Positions 1,092-63,603 of a stretch of 64,000 bases of DNA are shown piece by piece. The translations under genes were made by a program, and so were the position numbers. Where the stretch lies: the NCBI GenBank assembly GCA_016699325.1, contig CP064971.1, positions 1,819,636 to 1,883,635 on the forward strand, read 5' to 3'. The notes below the pieces were generated by a model, which saw only the letters and a list, made by a program, of their open reading frames with translations, was not told the DNA's origin and made no database searches. The stretch's first letter is position 1; every line of letters begins with the position of its first letter. Origin of the DNA: Methanolinea sp. (GTDB taxonomy: Archaea > Halobacteriota > Methanomicrobia > Methanomicrobiales > Methanospirillaceae).

Positions 1092-1469
1092 TATGCCGTC
1101 CCCGGCCACGCGGGACCCGGGCTCTGCCGGCCCGCAGGTCCCCGGGCAATCCCTTTTCATGGCGGTCTCACCCGGTACCCACCATCATCCCGCCCCGGGG
1201 ACGAGTCACCATTCACGTGTCGTGATGGATGCGGTGTCTCACCCCGGTACCACCACCATCCCGCCCCGGGGAACCTTATCGCGTCAGCCATTCCCCGGTT
1301 TTTTCCAGCCGGAACGGCCGGGTCTCATCGCTGATAGTCCCATTCCTGTCCGGCCAGGTGCTTTGCAAACAATACCCCTTTATTTCCTGTCCGCAGAAGC
1401 TGGTTTCCTGACGGGGGTCTATCAAACAGGGTAACTTAATTTCGTCAACCTCCATTTCCATTCGAGAAC

Positions 1470-1829: not shown

Positions 1830-2016
1830 GGGCGAGATGTGGGGAGAGACCGGGATTGCCCGGGAGAAAAAAAAAGAAGGAATGTCCCCGGCCGGAGATG
1901 GGGAAAACGCATCCCTGGACGATGATCGGGGACTTACGATATTTCCCTCACCGCCCAGCCAGCACCTCACTGAGGAGCCGGATCTCCCTGATCTCCGGTG
2001 ACCACCCCCGGTGCCC

Positions 2017-2316
2017 TCACCGCCCGGCCAGCACATCCCTGAGAAGCCAGATCCCCCCGATGATGACTGCCAGGTAATAGACAGCATTTACCAGGGGAAT
2101 AAACTGGTCGGCCACCCACATCCCGATCACGCCCTGGATGCTGAAATAGATCTGGACGGCTGCTATGAACACCAGCAGCAGGACGATCAGGCGAAGCCCG
2201 GTCATGAAATCAATGCCCGTTTCCTTTTTCCCTCTCTCCGGACTTCCGATCATTGATCCTCCTTCCTTATCCCCGGTCGTCCCCGCCGGGCCGGCCCTTT
2301 CATCCATCATCCGCAC
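2017..2316 (-). CDS. Small hydrophobic membrane protein (true start probably an internal Met, e.g. 2205)
   Basis: The ORF contains two predicted TM helices (LRLIVLLLVFIAAVQIYF, VYYLAVIIGGIWLL). I recognise no family. Confidence 0.5.
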   Translation of the reverse strand: MRMMDERAGPAGTTGDKEGGSMIGSPERGKKETGIDFMTGLRLIVLLLVFIAAVQIYFSIQGVIGMWVADQFIPLVNAVYYLAVIIGGIWLLRDVLAGR

Positions 2317-14654: not shown

Positions 14655-14767
14655 GATATAACCCTAAGTATTTTATTTCCAGAAATCGTGGGGCCACGTG
14701 CGAAAGGTGGGATATAACCCTAAGTATTTTATTTCCAGAAATCCTGGGGCCACGTGCGAAAGGTGGG
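14655..14767. repeat. Tandem duplication (2 x ~57 bp) of the IS1634-like terminal inverted repeat
   Basis: ATATAACCCTAAGTATTTTATTTCCAGAAATC[G/C]TGGGGCCACGTGCGAAAGGTGGG occurs twice, head to tail. Confidence 0.85.
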
Positions 14768-27846: not shown

Positions 27847-29877
27847 TTATAAGACCCGGTATATTTCGGTATGGCCTGACCGGAACACCGGGGTAAGGCG
27901 GTCACTTCGTGCCAGGTCCCCTAACTTTGACCCGTATCTCATCCGCTCGGTCTCGCCGACAAAGACATACTTCACGTTGTATTTTGCAAAAAGAAAACCG
28001 GTATCCACCTCCCCGGCATATATACGGTCCACGTCCGAGCATCGCTCTTCAACATCCCGCCACTCCCGTCCCCACATTATCTCATGGGTGCGCCACCCTA
28101 TAACGGTAGGAAGCCCGGTGAACGCTCCTATCCGCGACGAGTAGGTATACGAATCGCCGGGAGCTTCAAGCACCACATCTCCGTTCTGTGCAGTCTCCCT
28201 GAGCCAGCAGAGACCTTCGTAGTCATCAGGCTTCTGCTCTTGCAGCCACGCTGCCCCATCGAGCGTGAGCGTTCCAGTTTTACCCATGAAGTCCGCGTTC
28301 GGGATGGCGACCACCGAACAGAGCGGGTGGACCGCAGTCATGGCAATCACCGCCACTGCCACGGCAACCAGGACCCGGTTTTGTATCCGGTAGAGGAAAT
28401 ACACCGATGCAACTGCCCAGAACACCCAGGCCTGCAGATAGAACTTCATCATGGTGTTCAAGCGCTCATACGGCGGGCCATATGGATCGTTGATGTAGAA
28501 GATCTCGCAAAACACGATGAGAAAAAGGGCGATGCATGCAAAAATCGCAGGATATTCCTGGTGGGACCATGCACGGACAAAGAAGGGGATGGCAAAGAGC
28601 GAAAGCATTGCCAGCGGGAAATGGAGTGAGAACGAGATGACACCAGCAACGATGACCGCACCGGCCACGAGTATGTCTTCCCGGGAAAAGGTGTGCGATC
28701 CGACAAGATAGATGCCAGATACAGCGGCAAAACCACCGAAGGTGAGGAGAAAGCCCAGGATCCCTGTCCTCTCCCCGGGATCAAAAACGCATATCCTGCC
28801 CAGGAAAAGGAGTGCCAGGAAGGCACAACCTTCCAGGCCGGCCAGGAGAAGGAATGCCTTCTTTTTTGTTGCGCAATATCCTGTCCAGGCCACCAGGAAC
28901 AGGCAGGCCGGAAGGGTCCAGAGGTTTACGCCGGCAAGAAAGCAGGTGACAAGGATGGCCGTGCAGAACAATGGTTGCGAAAATTTCCTGTACATTGCAA
29001 GGCACAGCCCGGCAAGGGCCAGGATGAAGGGGATCGATATGAAATGGGCGTGCAGGTCTCCCTGGAGGAAGGTGTAGAACGGGTACAGGGTAATTGCATG
29101 GGGAATCACGCACGTTGCCGCTGTAAAATCAAACGAGACGAGCCACTCAGAGAACGTCCCTGCGAAGGCTTGGAACTGCAGGAGATCTGTTCTGCCCAGG
29201 TACGAGAGGAGTTGCACGAACCCGGCGCTGAAACCGGAAATCATGGTGAGGAAGACTGCAAGAAAGCCATACAGCCGCCGTCCGGCCAGGTTGACCCCAA
29301 TGCCGTAGGCGGCCTGCACCGCGATGGCAAAGAGCGCGGCTACGGCGAGGTTATACCCGGTTCCTGCGTCCACCCCTGAGAGCAGTACAGGAATGGCCGC
29401 GGCCAGGTGTCCCAGGTAGTAGTAGGGGAGGCCTGATCCGGCCCACCAGGGGTCAGGAAGGGGGAGGAAACCGGTCCGGCATATCGACTGGAGAAACGCG
29501 GAGTTCATGAAATCTTCAGAGTATCCGTAATAGATCTCGGGTTTGTGCATGAGGAAAAGGGCGGCGAGGATAAATGCCAGGACAAATATCGCCTCCTGCA
29601 CGAACATGTCCCGGGTGGGCCTCCAGTCACGTCGATATTTGCGGATGATGCATACCGCCGTTATACCGAGTGCGAGCAGGCCGGCGTACATGCCTGCCCC
29701 CAGCGGGACCAGGTGGAGGGAGGAGAGCGCCCATGCCACGAGGGTTATACAGACCATCCCGAGCGGGCGGGCGATCGACTGGCCTGCATCCCGGAGTTCC
29801 TGGGCGAGGACTGCTGCCAGTGGAAACGAAAGGATGCCGATTGCCTCGAGTATGATGAAGAACACAAGGAGTTCCAT
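27847..29877 (-). CDS. DUF2298 / Chlor_Arch_YYY large polytopic membrane protein (putative glycosyltransferase-like)
   Basis: 676 aa with many TM helices, the diagnostic GLPYYYLGH motif, and a soluble C-terminal domain. Confidence 0.85.
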   Translation of the reverse strand: MELLVFFIILEAIGILSFPLAAVLAQELRDAGQSIARPLGMVCITLVAWALSSLHLVPLGAGMYAGLLALGITAVCIIRKYRRDWRPTRDMFVQEAIFVLAFILAALFLMHKPEIYYGYSEDFMNSAFLQSICRTGFLPLPDPWWAGSGLPYYYLGHLAAAIPVLLSGVDAGTGYNLAVAALFAIAVQAAYGIGVNLAGRRLYGFLAVFLTMISGFSAGFVQLLSYLGRTDLLQFQAFAGTFSEWLVSFDFTAATCVIPHAITLYPFYTFLQGDLHAHFISIPFILALAGLCLAMYRKFSQPLFCTAILVTCFLAGVNLWTLPACLFLVAWTGYCATKKKAFLLLAGLEGCAFLALLFLGRICVFDPGERTGILGFLLTFGGFAAVSGIYLVGSHTFSREDILVAGAVIVAGVISFSLHFPLAMLSLFAIPFFVRAWSHQEYPAIFACIALFLIVFCEIFYINDPYGPPYERLNTMMKFYLQAWVFWAVASVYFLYRIQNRVLVAVAVAVIAMTAVHPLCSVVAIPNADFMGKTGTLTLDGAAWLQEQKPDDYEGLCWLRETAQNGDVVLEAPGDSYTYSSRIGAFTGLPTVIGWRTHEIMWGREWRDVEERCSDVDRIYAGEVDTGFLFAKYNVKYVFVGETERMRYGSKLGDLARSDRLTPVFRSGHTEIYRVL

Positions 29878-30435
29878 TCAACCAGCTCCTTGCTCCACGG
29901 CCAGAAAGAGGAGGATTGAACCTGCTGGGGACCGGTTCGGTCCGCACCGCCTTGCTCCCCGGCCAGGAGGAGGAGGATGGAGGCACAAGCGGACGTCATC
30001 CGCACCGGGAGGATCGCAGGTGCGATCCCGCTCTCCGGCAGATCCTGCCGGCCTGCCCGTTCGAGACCCGTCTCCCCTGTTTCTATGTTTTGCGGCTTTG
30101 GTCCGTGCAGGTCCGCAGTTCATCAGGTAGCGATGAATCCTGGCACGGGATATAGGTATTCCATTCCGGCCCAGGGCGTTTACTCCTGGCGGGCCTTCCT
30201 GGCCGGTCTTAATCCTTCCTTTCGTGATCGGTCTTTCTGGGGGAGCCTCCATCCTTTCCAGGGAGGTTTTCAGTACCATTTTTGCAGAAATAGCACTGCC
30301 TCTAAAAGAACCTGCATGAGTCATTTGAAGGGAAAAAGGGGAATTGAATGACAAGTGAAGGAGGGTGTGGGGCAGTGTGGATTCCTTTTTTTTAAGAATC
30401 TTTATCCCATTTCACGAGATAGTCCCGTAGCAGTG

Positions 30436-39166: not shown

Positions 39167-40278
39167 GAGTTCCCCACGCCCGTGGGGATGAACCACTGAC
39201 AAAGTTTGTTTCTGGTTCATGGTCAGCGAGTTCCCCACGCCCGTGGGGATGAACCAGCACCAGGAGAACGTGACCGGATCGTATGATGGAGTTCCCCACG
39301 CCCGTGGGGATGAACCGTTCTGGGTCGTGGGAAGTGCTGCGACAGGTTGGAGTTCCCCACGCCCGTGGGGATGAACCGCCATAGCAGAACACAGTGGATG
39401 GAGCTGGTAAGAGTTCCCCACGCCCGTGGGGATGAACCCATTCTAGGATAAGTTGCACCCATCAAAACCACGAGTTCCCCACGCCCGTGGGGATGAACCG
39501 TAGTCAAGGTTCACCAGCTTCTCTTTCCTCCCGAGTTCCCCACGCCCGTGGGGATGAACCAATGGAACAGATGAACGATCTACTCGGGCTTCCGAGTTCC
39601 CCACGCCCGTGGGGATGAACCACCGGGGCGGAAGTCCTGGACAAAGCACTTGAAGAGTTCCCCACGCCCGTGGGGATGAACCGGGAGCTACCGGGGCATA
39701 CGAAGCATATACCGAGAGTTCCCCACGCCCGTGGGGATGAACCAATTCCGCCGGAGTTCGTATGAGTGCAAAGAAGGAGTTCCCCACGCCCGTGGGGATG
39801 AACCATTCTTGCCCGGAACCGCAACCATTGAGAGCATGAGTTCCCCACGCCCGTGGGGATGAACCGAGCGGGTGAAAAAGATGGGTTTGGGTGCAACAGA
39901 GTTCCCCACGCCCGTGGGGATGAACCTCCTGGATATGTTGATGACTGGAGGATGCTGAAGAGTTCCCCACGCCCGTGGGGATGAACCTTCTACGATTCTT
40001 TCTGGACGTTGTTTCACTTCGAGTTCCCCACGCCCGTGGGGATGAACCAGGATTGTGGATTACTGTGCAGAGAATGATATGGAGTTCCCCACGCCCGTGG
40101 GGATGAACCACACAGCAGATGCACCCTTATAAGATAACGATACGAGTTCCCCACGCCCGTGGGGATGAACCGTCCTTGCAACGACCTTAAGCATCGAGCG
40201 CGGTGAGTTCCCCACGCCCGTGGGGATGAACCATCAAATGCGTCGAATTGATCATCATGTTCTCCGAGTTCCCCACGC
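39167..40278 (+). CRISPR. Type I-E CRISPR array: 18 full repeats, 18 spacers, plus a 19th repeat truncated after 13 nt
   Basis: The repeat GAGTTCCCCACGCCCGTGGGGATGAACC (28 nt plus a variable 29th base; stem CCCCACG/CGTGGGG) starts at 39167 and recurs every 61 bp, with one 62-bp step (40082 to 40144). The last copy at 40266 reads GAGTTCCCCACGC and then unrelated sequence. Confidence 0.97.
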
Positions 40279-45190: not shown

Positions 45191-46197
45191 GGCCGGGCAC
45201 CTCCGGGTTTCTTCCGCCCCGGTGTTTCTCCTGGGAGAGGTCCGGGAGGTGGTATCGTGGCTGGTATTGGACCGTCGTCCTGGTGGTGATCCTGCATCTT
45301 ACGGCCCAACCGTGCTCCGGAAGGTGCCACCGTGGTCGGTATTGAGCTATCGTCCTGGTGGTGGTCCTGCATCTTACGGCCTAACCGTGGTCCGGAAGGT
45401 GCCACCGTGGTCGGTATTGAGCTATCGTCCTGGTGGTGGTACTGCATTTTACGGCCCAACCGTGCTCCTGGGACTGGTCCGGGAGGTGCCATCGTGGTCA
45501 GTATTGAGCTATCGTCCTGGTGATGGTCCTGCATCTTACGGCCCAACCGTGCTCCTAGGATTGGTCCGGGAGGTACCATCGTATCCGGTATTGAGCTATC
45601 GTCCTGGTGATGGCCCTGCATTTTACGGCCCAACCGTGCTCCGGAAAGGGGTCCGGGAGGTGCCATCATATCTGACATTGAGCCGTCGTCCTTGTGAAGA
45701 TCCTGCGTTTTACGGCCCAACCATGCTCCGGAGAGGGGTCCGGAAGGTGCCATTGTATCCGGTGGCTGTCCGTCGTCATGGTGGTGGTCCTGCATCTTAC
45801 GGCCCAACCGTGCTCCGAGGATTGGTCCGGGAGGTGCCATCGTATCTGGTGGTGGCCCGTCGTCCTGGTGATGGCCCTGCATTTTACGGCCCAACCATGC
45901 TCCGAGGACTGGTCCGGGAGGTGCCATCGTATCTGGTGGTGGCCCGTCGTCCTGGTGATGGTCCTCCATCTTACGGCCCAACCGTGCCCCGGGGAGGGGG
46001 GAGGGGTCATCCCCCTGGCCCGACGCCTGGGACCGGCCAGTGATCAGCTCGCAGGACCAGACGGTCTCCTTCCCGAAACGGCGGCTTGTGGCAGCGGCAC
46101 AGTTCCTGCCCTGGCAAAGGACGATGCCATGGGCATCTGACATGAAGGGGCAGATCTTCCGCTCTGACATGCGGCCGTTCTCATGTTCAGTCCACAT
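45187..46197 (-). CDS. Repeat protein: Cys-rich N-terminus plus ~9 tandem 25/29-aa repeats
   Basis: N-terminus CPFMSDAHGIVLCQGRNCAA, then repeats of the form GARLGRKMQDHHQDDGPPPDTMAPPGP. Start and stop overlap both neighbours. Confidence 0.6.
   Translation of the reverse strand: MWTEHENGRMSERKICPFMSDAHGIVLCQGRNCAAATSRRFGKETVWSCELITGRSQASGQGDDPSPLPGARLGRKMEDHHQDDGPPPDTMAPPGPVLGAWLGRKMQGHHQDDGPPPDTMAPPGPILGARLGRKMQDHHHDDGQPPDTMAPSGPLSGAWLGRKTQDLHKDDGSMSDMMAPPGPLSGARLGRKMQGHHQDDSSIPDTMVPPGPILGARLGRKMQDHHQDDSSILTTMAPPGPVPGARLGRKMQYHHQDDSSIPTTVAPSGPRLGRKMQDHHQDDSSIPTTVAPSGARLGRKMQDHHQDDGPIPATIPPPGPLPGETPGRKKPGGARP
45260..46010. repeat. Coding tandem repeat, units of 75 bp (x3) then 87 bp (x6)
   Basis: TTACGGCC recurs at 45299, 45374, 45449, 45536, 45623, 45710, 45797, 45884 and 45971. 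Confidence 0.9.
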
Positions 46198-61436: not shown

Positions 61437-61742
61437 ATGGGTATGTTAAAAGAGTTCATGGACTTCCTCTACGAGTACAAGGTCATAGGGCTTGCAATCG
61501 CCTTCATCATCGGTGTTGCCGCAACGGCGCTGGTCAAGTCCCTGGTTGACAACATCGTGATGCCGGTAATCACCTTCTTTATCCCCGGCGGTGAGTGGCA
61601 GAATGCAACGCTTGTGCTCGGGTCGATTGTCATTTCATGGGGAAAATTCCTTGCCGACCTGATCTACTTTATCATCGTCGCATTTGTCGTCTTTATCGTC
61701 GCCAAGAAGGTGCTTAAGGAAGATAAAGTGACCAAGAAGTAA
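61437..61742 (+). CDS. mscL: Large-conductance mechanosensitive channel
   Basis: MLKEFMDFLYEYKVIGLAIAFIIGVAATALVKSLVDNIVMPVI is the canonical MscL N-terminus. 101 aa with two TM helices. Confidence 0.9.
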   Translation: MGMLKEFMDFLYEYKVIGLAIAFIIGVAATALVKSLVDNIVMPVITFFIPGGEWQNATLVLGSIVISWGKFLADLIYFIIVAFVVFIVAKKVLKEDKVTKK

Positions 61743-61819
61743 CCCCCTTTTTTTTCCTGTCCTTCAAATCCAGGACAAAGAGCCCTGTTATTCACAAATA
61801 CCTCTCACCGGAGGAGAGG

Positions 61820-62612
61820 CCGGTGCTGACCCGGACCCAAGATCCCGGTCTCCTGCTGGAACCGGTATCACTTCTGCGGATGGACGATCGCTTTCATGCT
61901 CCCGTCCCGGTGCCGGGCTGGAACCGGTATTCATTTCTGCGGATGGACGATCGCTTTCATGCTCCCGTCCCGGTGCCGGGCTGGAACCGGTATCACTCCT
62001 GCGGATGGACGATCGCCTTCAGGCTCCGGTCCCGGTGCCTTGCTGGAACCGGTATCATTCCTGCGGATGGACGATTGCCTTCACGCTCCCGCCCCGGTCT
62101 CCTGCTGGAACCGGTGTTACTCCTGCGGATGGACGATCGCCTTCACGCTCCCGTCCCGCTGCCGGGCTGGAACCAGTATCACTCCTGCGGATGGATGATC
62201 GCCTTCGGACTTCCGTCCCGGTGCCGGGCTGGAACCGGTGTTACTCCTGCGGATGGACGATCGCCTTCAGGCTTCCGTCCCGGTGCCGGGCTGGAACCGG
62301 TATCACTCCTGCGGATGGATGATCGCCTTCGGACTTCCGTCCCGGTGCCGGGTTGGAACCGGTATCACTCCTGCGGATGGATGATCGCCTTCACGCTCCC
62401 GCCCCGGTCTCCTGCTGGAACCGGTATCACTCCTGCGGATGGGCGATCGCCTTCATGCTCCTGTCCCGGTCTCCTGCTGGAACCGGTATCACTCCTGCGG
62501 ATGGATGATCGCCTTCACGCTCCCGCCCCGGTCTCCTGCTGGAACCGGTATCACTCCTGCGGATGGACGATCGCCTTCAGGCTCCCGTCCCGGTGCCGGG
62601 CTGTCAGGAGGA
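61820..62612. repeat. Tandem array of 12 x 62-bp units (first unit 63 bp) derived from the 3' end of the adjacent dehydrogenase gene
   Basis: Units start (TCA, the complement of the stop codon) at 61868, 61931, 61993, 62055, 62117, 62179, 62241, 62303, 62365, 62427, 62489 and 62551. The last unit is the real gene end. Confidence 0.95.
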
Positions 62613-63603
62613 ACCCCTTCACCGTTTCCCGTAACGGGAAAACATGGGTGATCATACCGGTCACATTGACCCTGCCATGCTGGATCCATTTCAGGGCGAT
62701 GGCCAGGTCATGGAAATCGGCGGCATAGGAATGGGTGATCGTGACCTCCTTCTGCCACAGGTCCCATACATTGATCCTGGACTGGACTTCAGGGTTGGTG
62801 GGGGCAAAAAAGAGGATCGTCCCCCCTGGTCCGATGGCTTCAAGTGACTGTTCCACGCAGACCGGGACCGGTGCGGTCACGATGACCGTATCTGCACCAG
62901 CCCCGCCGTTCAGTTCCCTGAACCGTGCCGGGACGTCTTCGGAAGCGGGAATGGTTGCATCGGCACCGAATCCCCGGGCGATCTCCAGCCGCTCGGGACT
63001 CGGGTTGGAGACCGCAATAAACCCCGCACCATTCAGCCGGGCGGCCTGGATATGGAGAAGCCCGGTGATACCGGCACCGATGACCAGGACCGATCGGCCA
63101 TCCGAGGTCGGGGCGAACCGCTGTCCCCGCACCACGCAACCCAGGGGTTCGACGAAGGTCCCGGCATCGAAGGAGACCGGGCCGGGAAGCCGCAGCATCC
63201 CCCTGTCCACGTTGATTTCGGGCAGCACAACGTATTCTGCAAACGCCCCGTACCCGTTCTTGAACTTTGTGGTATGCAGGGTCTTGCAGGCGGTCGCATG
63301 CCCGCGGATGCAGGCGTTGCAGGTGTTGCAGGGGACATGGTGAGTCACAACGACCCGGTCTCCCACCCTCCATTCCGGGTCAACCGCGGAGCCGACCTCG
63401 GCGATGGTCCCCGTGCACTCGTGGCCAAACGCCCCGATCCCCCCTGGTCGCCCGGCACGCTTCACCCGGTACCATTCCATCACATCCGACCCGCACACCC
63501 CGCAGGCCATGACCCTGACCCTGACCTCCCGGGGCCCCACGGTGAGATCGTCGACTTCCTCGATGCGGATGTCGCTGTTTGAGTAGTAGACCGCGGCTTT
63601 CAT
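62551..63603 (-). CDS. Zinc-dependent alcohol dehydrogenase family (MDR; threonine/sorbitol dehydrogenase-like)
   Basis: MKAAVYY...VMACGVCGSDV, GHECTGTIAEVG, a structural-Zn Cys cluster CNTCNACIRGHATAC, and the Rossmann motif VIGAGITGL. Confidence 0.9.
   Translation of the reverse strand: MKAAVYYSNSDIRIEEVDDLTVGPREVRVRVMACGVCGSDVMEWYRVKRAGRPGGIGAFGHECTGTIAEVGSAVDPEWRVGDRVVVTHHVPCNTCNACIRGHATACKTLHTTKFKNGYGAFAEYVVLPEINVDRGMLRLPGPVSFDAGTFVEPLGCVVRGQRFAPTSDGRSVLVIGAGITGLLHIQAARLNGAGFIAVSNPSPERLEIARGFGADATIPASEDVPARFRELNGGAGADTVIVTAPVPVCVEQSLEAIGPGGTILFFAPTNPEVQSRINVWDLWQKEVTITHSYAADFHDLAIALKWIQHGRVNVTGMITHVFPLRETVKGFLLTARHRDGSLKAIVHPQE

What the first reader, a model, noticed from the sequence alone, without database searches (positions are those of the whole stretch)
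61820..62612. Twelve tandem 62-bp copies of the last 16 codons plus stop of the dehydrogenase gene
- In gene sense, each unit is AGCCCGGCACCGGGACGGGAGCCTGAAGGCGATCGTCCATCCGCAGGAGTGA (ARHRDGSLKAIVHPQE*) plus an 11-nt linker TACCGGTTCC(A).
- The unit nearest the gene is the real C-terminus. Eleven more follow in the convergent spacer toward mscL.
- A 62-bp period is not a multiple of 3, so the array itself is non-coding.
- The units nevertheless differ in a codon-like way: GGG AGC CTG in some and GGA AGT CCG in others, which is two synonymous changes plus Leu to Pro. Other variants give Val/Met at that position, Ile for Val, and Lys for Glu at the last codon.
- Unequal crossover between units would swap the extreme C-terminus of the enzyme. 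Alternatively the array is a replication-slippage minisatellite or a terminator stack.
Basis: seen in the sequence. Interest (0 to 1): 0.62.

Follow-up and report, generated by a model that had tools for sequence, protein, structure and literature searches.

The report
Minisatellite grown from a gene's end
In one widespread strain of an uncultured sewage-digester methanogen, the last 16 codons, the stop codon and 11 following bases of an alcohol-dehydrogenase gene have been copied head-to-tail twelve times behind the gene; this is a real, strain-variable repeat but most likely a harmless by-product of DNA-copying slippage, not a device.

Summary
Positions 61843-62603 hold 12 full units (61-63 nt) plus a 25-nt partial 13th unit. 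Unit 1 is the true 3' end of a zinc alcohol-dehydrogenase (ADH) gene.

- **Origin.** In 17 ortholog loci from other Methanoregulaceae and Methanomicrobiales MAGs (two pairs share a contig), the same C-terminus (…GSLK[AV]I[VI]HPQE*) occurs once, with nothing repeated downstream. The array is therefore a lineage-specific amplification of the gene end.
- **Not an artefact.** Twelve fetched loci from JGI, ENA and NCBI assemblies carry the same units in the same order. In four DNA runs, unit-specific contigs sit at roughly single-copy depth.
- **Variable within the species.** Five contigs from strains 99.1-99.4% identical in the flanks carry only 1.4 copies, in two sequence types.
- **Transcribed.** Four metatranscriptomes contain the array. 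It has no T-runs, no significant RNA fold and no Rfam match.
- **No sign of selection.** The "codon-like" variation is not significant (9 of 22 variants synonymous against about 28% expected, p=0.13).

Best reading: a locus-specific minisatellite (VNTR). It was seeded by an imperfect 15-nt direct repeat 62 nt apart and tolerated because the first copy keeps the intact stop. It is ordinary in kind; methanogens are known to carry such satellites.

The parts
62551..63603 (-). Zinc-type medium-chain alcohol/polyol dehydrogenase gene (350 aa). Its last 16 codons plus stop form unit 1 of the array.
   Evidence: Pfam ADH_N and ADH_zinc_N. NCBIfam hits to threonine, inosose and galactitol-phosphate dehydrogenase models all fall below their cut-offs. 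PDB relatives are threonine and sorbitol dehydrogenases. The ORF is listed.
61843..62603 (-). The whole tandem array: 12 full units plus a 25-nt partial 13th, period 62, 88% mean identity, 64% G+C.
62551..62602 (-). Unit 1, the only translated copy (ARHRDGSLKAIVHPQE*). It is the copy closest to all the others.
   Evidence: The distance matrix shows 2-8 differences from unit 1 to every other unit, while other pairs differ by up to 14.
61868..62550 (-). Units 2-12, non-coding copies. Each is an 11-nt linker TACCGGTTCCA plus a pseudo C-terminus and a stop. Units 2 and 4 are identical, 5 and 7 are near-identical, and so are 11 and 12 (local re-duplications).
61843..61867 (-). Partial 13th unit (TACCGGTTCCAGCAGGAGACCGGGA). 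Single-copy strains also carry a 25-nt stretch here, so this is the downstream arm of the imperfect direct repeat that probably seeded the array.
   Evidence: alignment with the outgroup spacer.
61437..61742 (+). Convergent mscL gene (large-conductance mechanosensitive channel).
   Evidence: Pfam MscL.
61748..61755 (+). T8 run directly after the mscL stop, a likely archaeal oligo-T terminator for mscL. Its role is inferred, not shown.
   Evidence: Sequence. RNA contigs that cover mscL end at 61737 and 61783 in two metatranscriptomes.
61823..62728 (+). 301-aa ORF on the opposite strand, made entirely of the repeat and overlapping the ADH end by 178 nt. Public pipelines call it a gene, but it is most likely spurious.
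   Evidence: called in JGI and ENA contigs. No NCBIfam family. Among 5.8 billion proteins only its own cluster was found. It cannot exist in single-copy strains.

Best explanation
This is a locus-specific minisatellite (VNTR) in an uncultured Methanoregulaceae methanogen from anaerobic digesters.

**Proposed origin**
- The ancestral locus had the ADH gene end once.
- About 11 nt after the stop lay a stretch (C-AGC-nnnnn-ACCGGGA) that resembled a 15-nt stretch inside the gene (C-AGC-CCGGC-ACCGGGA) lying 62 nt upstream.
- Slipped-strand mispairing or unequal recombination between these two arms duplicated the 62 nt between them: 16 codons, the stop and an 11-nt linker.
- Further slippage, unequal crossover and gene conversion expanded the array to 12 copies in one now-widespread clonal lineage.

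**Why it persists**
- The array is tolerated because the first copy keeps the complete reading frame and its own stop. The protein is therefore unchanged and the other copies are untranslated.
- Those copies drift freely away from the constrained unit 1.
- The array is transcribed, most likely as a roughly 0.7-kb extension of the ADH 3' untranslated region. It has no demonstrable function.

**Status of each step**
- Shown: the structure, the single-copy orthologs, the strain polymorphism, independence from assembly, and presence in RNA libraries.
- Inferred: the seeding repeat, the slippage mechanism, neutrality, and the transcript strand.
For: 1. **Derived from the gene end.** In 17 ortholog loci from other MAGs (two pairs share a contig; one has the same mscL synteny) the C-terminus LTARHRDGSLK[AV]I[VI]HPQE* occurs once, with unrelated sequence downstream.
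2. **Real.** The same 12 units in the same order, with 0-3 SNPs, appear in L011-L014, L016-L018, L103, L104 and L106-L108 from JGI, ENA and NCBI assemblies. In DNA runs X1, X2, X10 and X17, unit-specific contigs have depths of 189-244, 95-110, 42-74 and 6-10. The flanks are at 186-238, 136-145, 63-65 and 13-15.
3. **Polymorphic.** L015, L100, L101 (a k=31 Logan contig that runs straight through) and L102 have unit 1 plus the partial TATCGGTTCCAACCCGGCATCGGGA. L099 has unit 1 plus TGCCGATTCCAGCAAGGTACCGGGA. Their flanks are 99.1-99.4% identical to the window.
4. **Seeding repeat.** Every allele keeps the 25-nt partial unit. In the outgroup spacer, …TTTCAGCC… and ACCGG pieces align at or near that place.
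5. **Drift pattern.** Unit 1 is central in the distance matrix. The synonymous fraction is not significantly raised.
6. **No functional signature.** RNA-fold z-scores are -0.05 to -1.6. There is no Rfam hit at E<=1, no terminator-like site and no T or A run of 4 or more.
7. **A general habit of this genome.** The same window has other short tandem duplications at 56-71-nt spacing, one of which again spans a gene's last codons plus stop.
8. **A known kind.** Non-coding satellites with long units have been described in methanogen genomes and attributed to replication anomalies (PMC6749651). Borg elements have tandem repeats that start within ORF ends and are flanked by partial repeats (PMC9879509, section 2.1.3).
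Against: - Units differ by about 12% from one another, while 12-copy strains differ by 0.04% or less and single-copy strains by 0.6-0.9% in the flanks. Either the array is much older than the strain split (and the single-copy alleles are collapses), or the array mutates faster than its surroundings. I could not decide which.
- No intermediate copy numbers were seen. The array is unchanged across indexed runs dated 2016-2025. That is more stable than a freely slipping VNTR would usually be.
- The 3' half of the unit plus the linker varies less than the 5' half (9 of 38 sites against 12 of 24, Fisher p=0.053). The contrast disappears (p=0.22) if the 5-nt patch is counted as one inherited event.
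- The transcript strand is unknown, because only contigs were available.
- The rest of the genome could not be searched for further copies.
Confidence: 0.8

Rival explanations
1. Silent-cassette store. The downstream units would be a reservoir from which unequal crossover or gene conversion replaces the enzyme's last 16 residues, giving C-terminal variants.
For: - Every unit keeps a stop and an otherwise readable pseudo-C-terminus.
- One strain (L099) ends in …KAIIHPQE. The Ile codon ATC is the variant carried by units 2, 4, 5 and 7.
Against: - All 12-copy assemblies have the canonical end.
- The one variant is in a single-copy strain and equals the residue common in orthologs, so a G->A point change suffices.
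- The unit variants include Pro, Lys, Arg, Gly and Asp at positions invariant in orthologs. The synonymous excess is not significant (p=0.13).
- This is a generic zinc-dehydrogenase family protein (domains) with no obvious reason to vary. Single-copy strains also exist.
- Exchange between direct repeats would mostly delete units.
Confidence: 0.04
2. Functional transcribed element. The array would act in RNA, as a 3'UTR stabiliser or destabiliser, a protein or small-RNA sponge, or a buffer against collision of the convergent ADH and mscL transcripts.
For: - Array-specific contigs occur in four metatranscriptomes at about 25-125% of the ADH depth. Two of them have zero depth at 61786-61866, which argues against plain DNA carry-over.
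- The linker and the 3' half of the unit are somewhat less variable than the rest.
Against: - No fold beats shuffled controls and there is no Rfam family.
- There are no oligo-T signals.
- Conspecific strains do without the array and no orthologous locus has it.
- Being transcribed is expected for any DNA inserted upstream of a gene's terminator.
Confidence: 0.08
3. DNA-level protein-binding array, by analogy with plasmid centromeres or iterons (for example the 12 tandem 43-bp sopC repeats of F, recalled from my own knowledge).
For: There are twelve regularly spaced units, each with the short palindromes ACCGGT and CGATCG.
Against: - The unit is demonstrably a copy of a coding end, not a dedicated site.
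- I saw no partition or replication genes in the flanking 4-5 kb. The neighbours are catalase, an aldolase, the ADH, mscL, a DUF2115 protein and a beta-propeller protein.
- The array is absent from sister strains.
- The palindromes are only 6 bp long.
Confidence: 0.03
4. Assembly artefact or mis-assembled collapse or expansion.
For: - Some contigs break inside the array (L016, L018, L106-L108).
- One scaffold has an N-gap between the near-identical units 11 and 12 (L014).
Against: - Twelve fetched loci give the same unit order, across several assembler naming styles: SPAdes-style NODE names, a k141 contig and JGI contigs.
- Unit-specific contigs are at about single-copy depth in four DNA runs from four studies.
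Confidence: 0.01
5. The 301-aa plus-strand ORF across the array is a real repeat protein.
For: It is open across the whole array and has been called as a gene in JGI and ENA contigs, with a faint MDMPI_N hit.
Against: - It has no family hit.
- It has no relatives other than itself among 5.8 billion proteins.
- It overlaps the ADH gene by 178 nt, and it exists only because a 62-nt unit lacking plus-strand stops is repeated.
- It cannot exist in single-copy strains.
Confidence: 0.01

Closest known systems
Prokaryotic minisatellites / VNTR loci, including the non-coding long-unit satellites described in methanogens (Subirana & Messeguer 2019, PMC6749651)
   Same: - It is a head-to-tail array of a 10-100-nt unit at a single locus.
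- The unit length is not a multiple of three, and the array lies in an intergenic spacer.
- Copy number differs between strains.
- The cited work attributes such arrays to replication anomalies and finds them unusually common in some methanogens.
   Different: - The unit is traceable to the last 16 codons plus stop of the adjacent gene.
- The units are rather diverged (88%).
- Only two copy-number states were seen (1.4 and 12.4), and the 12-copy state is stable across many samples.
Tandem repeats of Borg extrachromosomal elements of Methanoperedens (Schoelmerich et al. 2023, PMC9879509)
   Same: - Both are archaeal.
[quoted passage not shown] Here too there is a 25-nt partial unit.
   Different: - Borg repeats occur all over an extrachromosomal element and are described as recently formed, rapidly evolving and adenine-enriched.
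- This array is a single locus in what looks like a chromosomal context (neighbouring genes). It is 64% G+C, imperfect, and apparently stable over years of sampling.
MIRU-VNTR loci of Mycobacterium tuberculosis (Supply et al. 1997; recalled from my own knowledge)
   Same: Both are 40-100-nt intergenic tandem units whose phase relates to the stop codon of the upstream gene, and both are usable as strain markers.
   Different: - MIRUs are a dispersed family present at about 40 loci, and they carry small ORFs coupled to the flanking genes.
- Here the unit was found only at this locus in the 64-kb window and was born locally.
Gene-end minisatellites noted earlier in this scan in bacteria (e1-4094913, e1-3558136, e1-2379481, e1-5147709, e1-4958764)
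   Same: The anatomy is the same: the last codons, the stop and a few following bases are re-copied head-to-tail downstream. The favoured explanation is also the same: slippage that survives where it does no harm.
   Different: - Those cases are in bacteria.
- This case is in an archaeon, it is the sole large array in its window, and its population data span many metagenomes.
- The earlier entries are unverified AI notes. I used them only as leads.

Membership tests
Minisatellite / VNTR | Head-to-tail direct repeats of a roughly 10-100-nt unit, far beyond chance | tested here: met
   TRF gives period 62, 12.1 copies, score 1097. There are 12 core matches against 0 in 100 shuffles.
Minisatellite / VNTR | Copy number varies between strains of one species | tested here: met
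   There are 12.4 copies in the window and 12 other loci. There are 1.4 copies in L015, L099, L100, L101 and L102, at 99.1-99.4% flank identity.
Minisatellite / VNTR | Locus-specific unit, not a dispersed family | tested here: inconclusive
   No other copy exists in the 64-kb window. In other species the core occurs only once, at the orthologous gene end.
MIRU-like dispersed intergenic repeat | The same unit at many loci of the genome | tested here: inconclusive
   None was found elsewhere in the window.
Intrinsic or oligo-T terminator stack | A T-run (archaeal) or a G+C-rich hairpin plus T-run (bacterial) in each unit | tested here: not met
   There is no T or A run of 4 or more in 761 nt, no terminator-like site in the array, and fold z-scores of -0.05 to -1.6.
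Structured RNA family | A match to a curated covariance model, or a fold better than shuffles | tested here: not met
   Rfam gave 0 matches at E<=1. The folds are not better than shuffles.
Diversity-generating retroelement target (variable repeat at a gene's 3' end) | One template/variable repeat pair whose differences fall at template adenines, plus a reverse transcriptase | tested here: not met
   - The structure is twelve tandem direct copies, not one template/variable pair.
- The substitutions are a mix of base changes (G>A, C>T, T>C, C>G, C>A), not confined to adenine positions.
- I did not search the whole window for a reverse transcriptase.
CRISPR array | Conserved repeats separated by unique spacers | tested here: not met
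   The units abut with no spacers. The window's genuine CRISPR array lies at about 39167-40278 with a different repeat.
Silent-cassette or shufflon-type C-terminal variation system | The expressed end is exchanged with stored copies in the population; a recombinase or inverted sites are present | tested here: not met
   All 12-copy assemblies have the same expressed end. All units are direct, not inverted. The flanking genes are catalase, an aldolase, mscL, a DUF2115 protein and a beta-propeller protein, with no recombinase.

The most novel reading that the evidence does not exclude
This methanogen may have a length-biased tandem-duplication process, of which the ADH array is only the most expanded product.

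- Apart from the CRISPR array, the 64-kb window has non-coding tandem duplications at spacings of 56, 62, 62, 69 and 71 nt. Two of them (the ADH array and the 69-nt pair) span a gene's last codons plus stop; the second 62-nt pair lies 6 nt upstream of a gene's start codon.
- The 93 kb of related Methanoregulaceae and Methanomicrobiales loci I fetched show none of this kind.
- A preferred step of about 60-70 nt could reflect a physical ruler. One candidate is the roughly 60 bp wrapped by an archaeal histone tetramer. That link is my own speculation and was not tested.
- On this reading, gene ends would mark where such events are tolerated.
Probability: 0.1. Interest if true: 0.6.

Novelty: new member of a known kind. 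Interest (0 to 1): 0.25.

Why it matters
- **A clean natural example.** It shows how a compact archaeal genome tolerates tandem duplication. A copy that spans the stop codon leaves the protein intact, so gene ends become nurseries for minisatellites.
- **A strain marker.** The 1.4-copy and 12.4-copy states give a ready marker for a methanogen lineage found in many digester and sludge metagenomes. Runs dated 2016-2025 hold the 12-copy stretch, and four of them (2021-2025) were checked directly.
- **An annotation trap.** A 301-aa repeat "protein" on the opposite strand has been called in public assemblies.
- **An open question for long reads.** Units differ by 12% inside an array that is invariant between samples, in a species whose strains differ by under 1%. 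How such arrays age is unresolved.

None of this changes current understanding of gene regulation or of archaeal biology.

Tried and rejected
**Ideas tested and rejected**
- Terminator or RNA-structure idea: folding of two-unit stretches on both strands, a promoter/terminator scan, Rfam and a T/A-run count were all negative.
- Selection on the pseudo-peptides: the synonymous fraction of 9/22 is not significant.
- Nucleotide-level constraint on the gene's 3' end in orthologs: third-position identity in the last 17 codons is 0.23-0.82, against 0.46-0.65 for the rest of the gene, with no consistent excess.
- The 301-aa plus-strand ORF as a gene: no family hit and no relatives.
- Tandem repeats in the related loci I fetched: the only one is a 237-nt coding PKD-type repeat in a surface protein of Methanolinea UBA275, which is unrelated.

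**Searches that found nothing**
- A survey of copy-number alleles with a degenerate junction pattern in metagenome contigs and genome contigs gave 0 hits. Even known carriers were missed, so these collections evidently do not serve this species' locus.
- A search for long-read (Nanopore) runs found none.
- A look-up of the 99-aa protein next to the second gene-end duplication found nothing on record under that start codon.

Full report
**1. What is there**

Tandem Repeats Finder reports one array at 61855-62603 with period 62, 12.1 copies, 88% matches and score 1097. A 22-nt degenerate core of the unit matches 12 times in the window and never in 100 shuffles.

Read on the minus strand, the sense of the neighbouring gene, the array runs from 62603 down to 61843:
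- Unit 1 (62602-62551) is the true end of a 350-aa ORF at 62551..63603. It encodes ARHRDGSLKAIVHPQE followed by TGA.
- Each later unit begins with the 11-nt linker TACCGGTTCCA and repeats the 51 nt.
- Units 2-11 are 62 nt, and unit 12 is 63 nt.
- A 25-nt partial 13th unit (61867-61843) abuts unique sequence.

The gene is a zinc-type medium-chain dehydrogenase with ADH_N and ADH_zinc_N domains. Its hits to threonine, inosose and galactitol-phosphate dehydrogenase models fall below their cut-offs, and its PDB relatives are threonine and sorbitol dehydrogenases. A convergent mscL gene ends at 61742 and is followed by a T8 run.

**2. Where it came from**

A scan of species-representative genomes with the core pattern, and a second scan with the protein, found orthologs in 17 loci from Methanolinea, Methanoregula, Methanoregulaceae, Methanomicrobiaceae and Methanomicrobiales MAGs; two pairs of loci come from the same contig. 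All end in …LTA[RHQE][HP][RKE][DE]GSLK[AV]I[VI]HPQE*. All have this end once, followed by unrelated and often T-rich sequence. One of them (L006) has the same ADH-mscL convergent arrangement. The peptide is therefore ancestral, and the array is a recent, lineage-specific amplification of the gene end.

**3. Real, and variable within the species**

- An exact look-up of the ADH protein and of MscL returned many contigs from JGI, ENA, NCBI and Logan assemblies of digester and sludge metagenomes.
- Twelve fetched loci carry the same units in the same order, with 0-3 SNPs. These are L011-L014, L016-L018, L103, L104 and L106-L108. Some contigs stop inside the array, and one has an N-gap between the near-identical units 11 and 12.
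- In four DNA runs from four studies, contigs that are unique to particular units have about the same depth as the single-copy flanks. The array is therefore not an assembly artefact. The indexed runs that hold the stretch are dated 2016-2025.
- Five contigs carry only unit 1 plus a 25-nt partial unit. In four of them (L015, L100, L101, L102) it is TATCGGTTCCAACCCGGCATCGGGA. One of these, L101, is a k=31 Logan contig that runs straight through the locus. In L099 it is TGCCGATTCCAGCAAGGTACCGGGA.
- Their flanks are 99.1-99.4% identical to the window. The 12-copy contigs are 99.95-100% identical to it.
- No intermediate copy number turned up. The opposite-strand ORF, whose length would report copy number, has only its own cluster in the protein collection.

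**4. How it probably arose**

All alleles of the species keep a partial second unit. Its last 15 nt resemble the stretch in the gene lying 62 nt upstream:
- gene: CAGC-CCGGC-ACCGGGA
- window terminal unit: CAGC-AGGAG-ACCGGGA
- L099: CAGC-AAGGT-ACCGGGA
- L015 type: CAAC-CCGGC-ATCGGGA

In the outgroup L006 spacer, …TTTCAGCC… and ACCGG pieces align at or near that place. At least part of this downstream arm therefore looks like ancestral flank, not a product of duplication. An imperfect direct repeat 62 nt apart is the classical substrate for slipped-strand mispairing or unequal recombination.

Both forms of the 5-nt patch, gene-type CCGGC and flank-type AGGAG, occur inside the array, as does the intermediate AAGGC. 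This is expected if exchanges took place on either side of the patch and later events shuffled the units. Local re-duplication is visible: units 2 and 4 are identical, units 5 and 7 differ at 2 sites, and units 11 and 12 differ at 1 site plus an indel.

Unit 1 sits in the centre of the distance matrix, 2-8 differences from every other unit, while other pairs differ by up to 14. That is the pattern expected if the translated copy is held constant and the untranslated copies drift away from it.

**5. Tests for function**

- *Selection on the pseudo-peptides.* Of 22 distinct variants, 9 are synonymous (counting TGA to TAA), against 27-30% expected. This is not significant (p=0.13). The replacements include Leu->Pro, Glu->Lys, Gly->Arg and Asp->Gly at positions invariant in orthologs.
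- *C-terminal swapping.* No 12-copy assembly has a non-canonical end. The only variant end (Val->Ile) is in the single-copy strain L099 and matches the residue common in orthologs.
- *Terminator or RNA element.* There is no T or A run of 4 or more, no terminator-like site, no fold better than shuffles (z from -0.05 to -1.6) and no Rfam hit.
- *Nucleotide-level constraint on the gene end in orthologs.* None that is consistent.
- *Transcription.* In four metatranscriptomes, unit-specific contigs are present at roughly 25-125% of the ADH depth. Two of these libraries have zero depth at 61786-61866, between the array and mscL, which argues against DNA carry-over. The simplest reading is that the ADH transcript, which has no oligo-T signal near its stop in this species, runs through the array. 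The strand could not be determined, because only contigs were available.
- *The 301-aa plus-strand ORF.* It is called by public pipelines but has no family and no relatives, and it cannot exist in single-copy strains.

**6. Context**

The same window holds other short tandem duplications at similar spacing:
- 48 nt repeated at 69-nt spacing at 1945-2061, which again spans the last codons plus the stop of a small membrane-protein gene;
- 71-nt spacing at 1165-1272, about 75 nt past the stop of a P-type ATPase gene;
- 62-nt spacing at 29883-29981, 6 nt upstream of a gene's start codon;
- 56 nt repeated twice at 14655-14766.

The 93 kb of related Methanoregulaceae and Methanomicrobiales loci I fetched show only one coding PKD-type repeat.

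The literature already describes non-coding long-unit satellites in methanogens and attributes their birth to replication anomalies (PMC6749651). It also describes Borg-element tandem repeats that begin within ORF ends and have flanking partial repeats (PMC9879509). Earlier notes from this scan report similar gene-end minisatellites in several bacteria. I treated those notes as leads only.

**7. What remains unexplained**

- Units differ by about 12%, yet the array is invariant between samples, and strains of the species differ by under 1% in the flanks. Either the array is old and the 1.4-copy alleles are collapses, or the repeat mutates faster than its surroundings.
- The absence of intermediate copy numbers is also unusual for a VNTR.

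**8. Verdict**

This is a new member of a known kind, namely a prokaryotic minisatellite born from a gene end. Interest is modest.

Noticed in passing
window 1945-2061 (minus-strand gene 2017..2316): A second gene-end duplication. The last ~13 codons plus the stop of a 99-aa membrane-protein ORF (…GIWLLRDVLAGR*) recur 69 nt downstream at 85% identity (…IRLLSEVLAGR*). This is the two-copy stage of the same kind of event.
   Followed up: partly
window 29883-29981: A 37-nt stretch is repeated at 62-nt spacing (84% identity). It lies 6 nt upstream of the start codon of the 676-aa membrane-protein gene at 27847..29877 (minus strand) and includes a GGAG-like ribosome-binding stretch. The spacing is the same 62 nt as the ADH array, but the sequence is unrelated.
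   Followed up: partly
window 1165-1272: A 37-nt stretch is repeated at 71-nt spacing (86% identity), in the spacer about 75 nt past the stop of the P-type ATPase gene that ends at 1091.
   Followed up: no
window 14655-14766: A perfect-looking tandem doubling of a 56-nt A+T-rich segment (98% identity).
   Followed up: no
window 45238-45995: A tandem repeat of 75 and 87 nt, open on both strands. It lies inside a 336-aa ORF next to a primase-polymerase-like ORF, in an element beside the CRISPR array. Unlike the ADH array it is in frame and probably coding.
   Followed up: partly
window 39167-40278: A CRISPR array with a 61-nt period and the repeat GAGTTCCCCACGCCCGTGGGGATGAACC, which resembles the E. 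coli type I-E repeat. That is unusual for a methanogen.
   Followed up: no
window 61823-62728 (+), and L011, L017, L103, L104: Public gene callers have deposited a 301-aa "protein" that is only the opposite strand of the array and carries a faint MDMPI_N Pfam hit. This is likely database contamination by a spurious ORF.
   Followed up: yes
ADH stop regions of L004, L020, L022-L027, L029 compared with window 62540-62551: Nine of the ortholog loci have a run of 5-8 T at or within a few bases of the ADH stop, which is typical of archaeal terminators. The window species, in both its single-copy and 12-copy alleles, has none for about 90 nt or more. Its ADH transcript probably always had a long 3' tail.
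   Followed up: partly
L024 3920-4809 (Methanolinea sp. UBA275): The gene downstream of the orthologous ADH is a 712-aa surface protein on the opposite strand, with 237-nt (79-aa) PKD-like tandem repeats. It is unrelated to the array studied here.
   Followed up: yes
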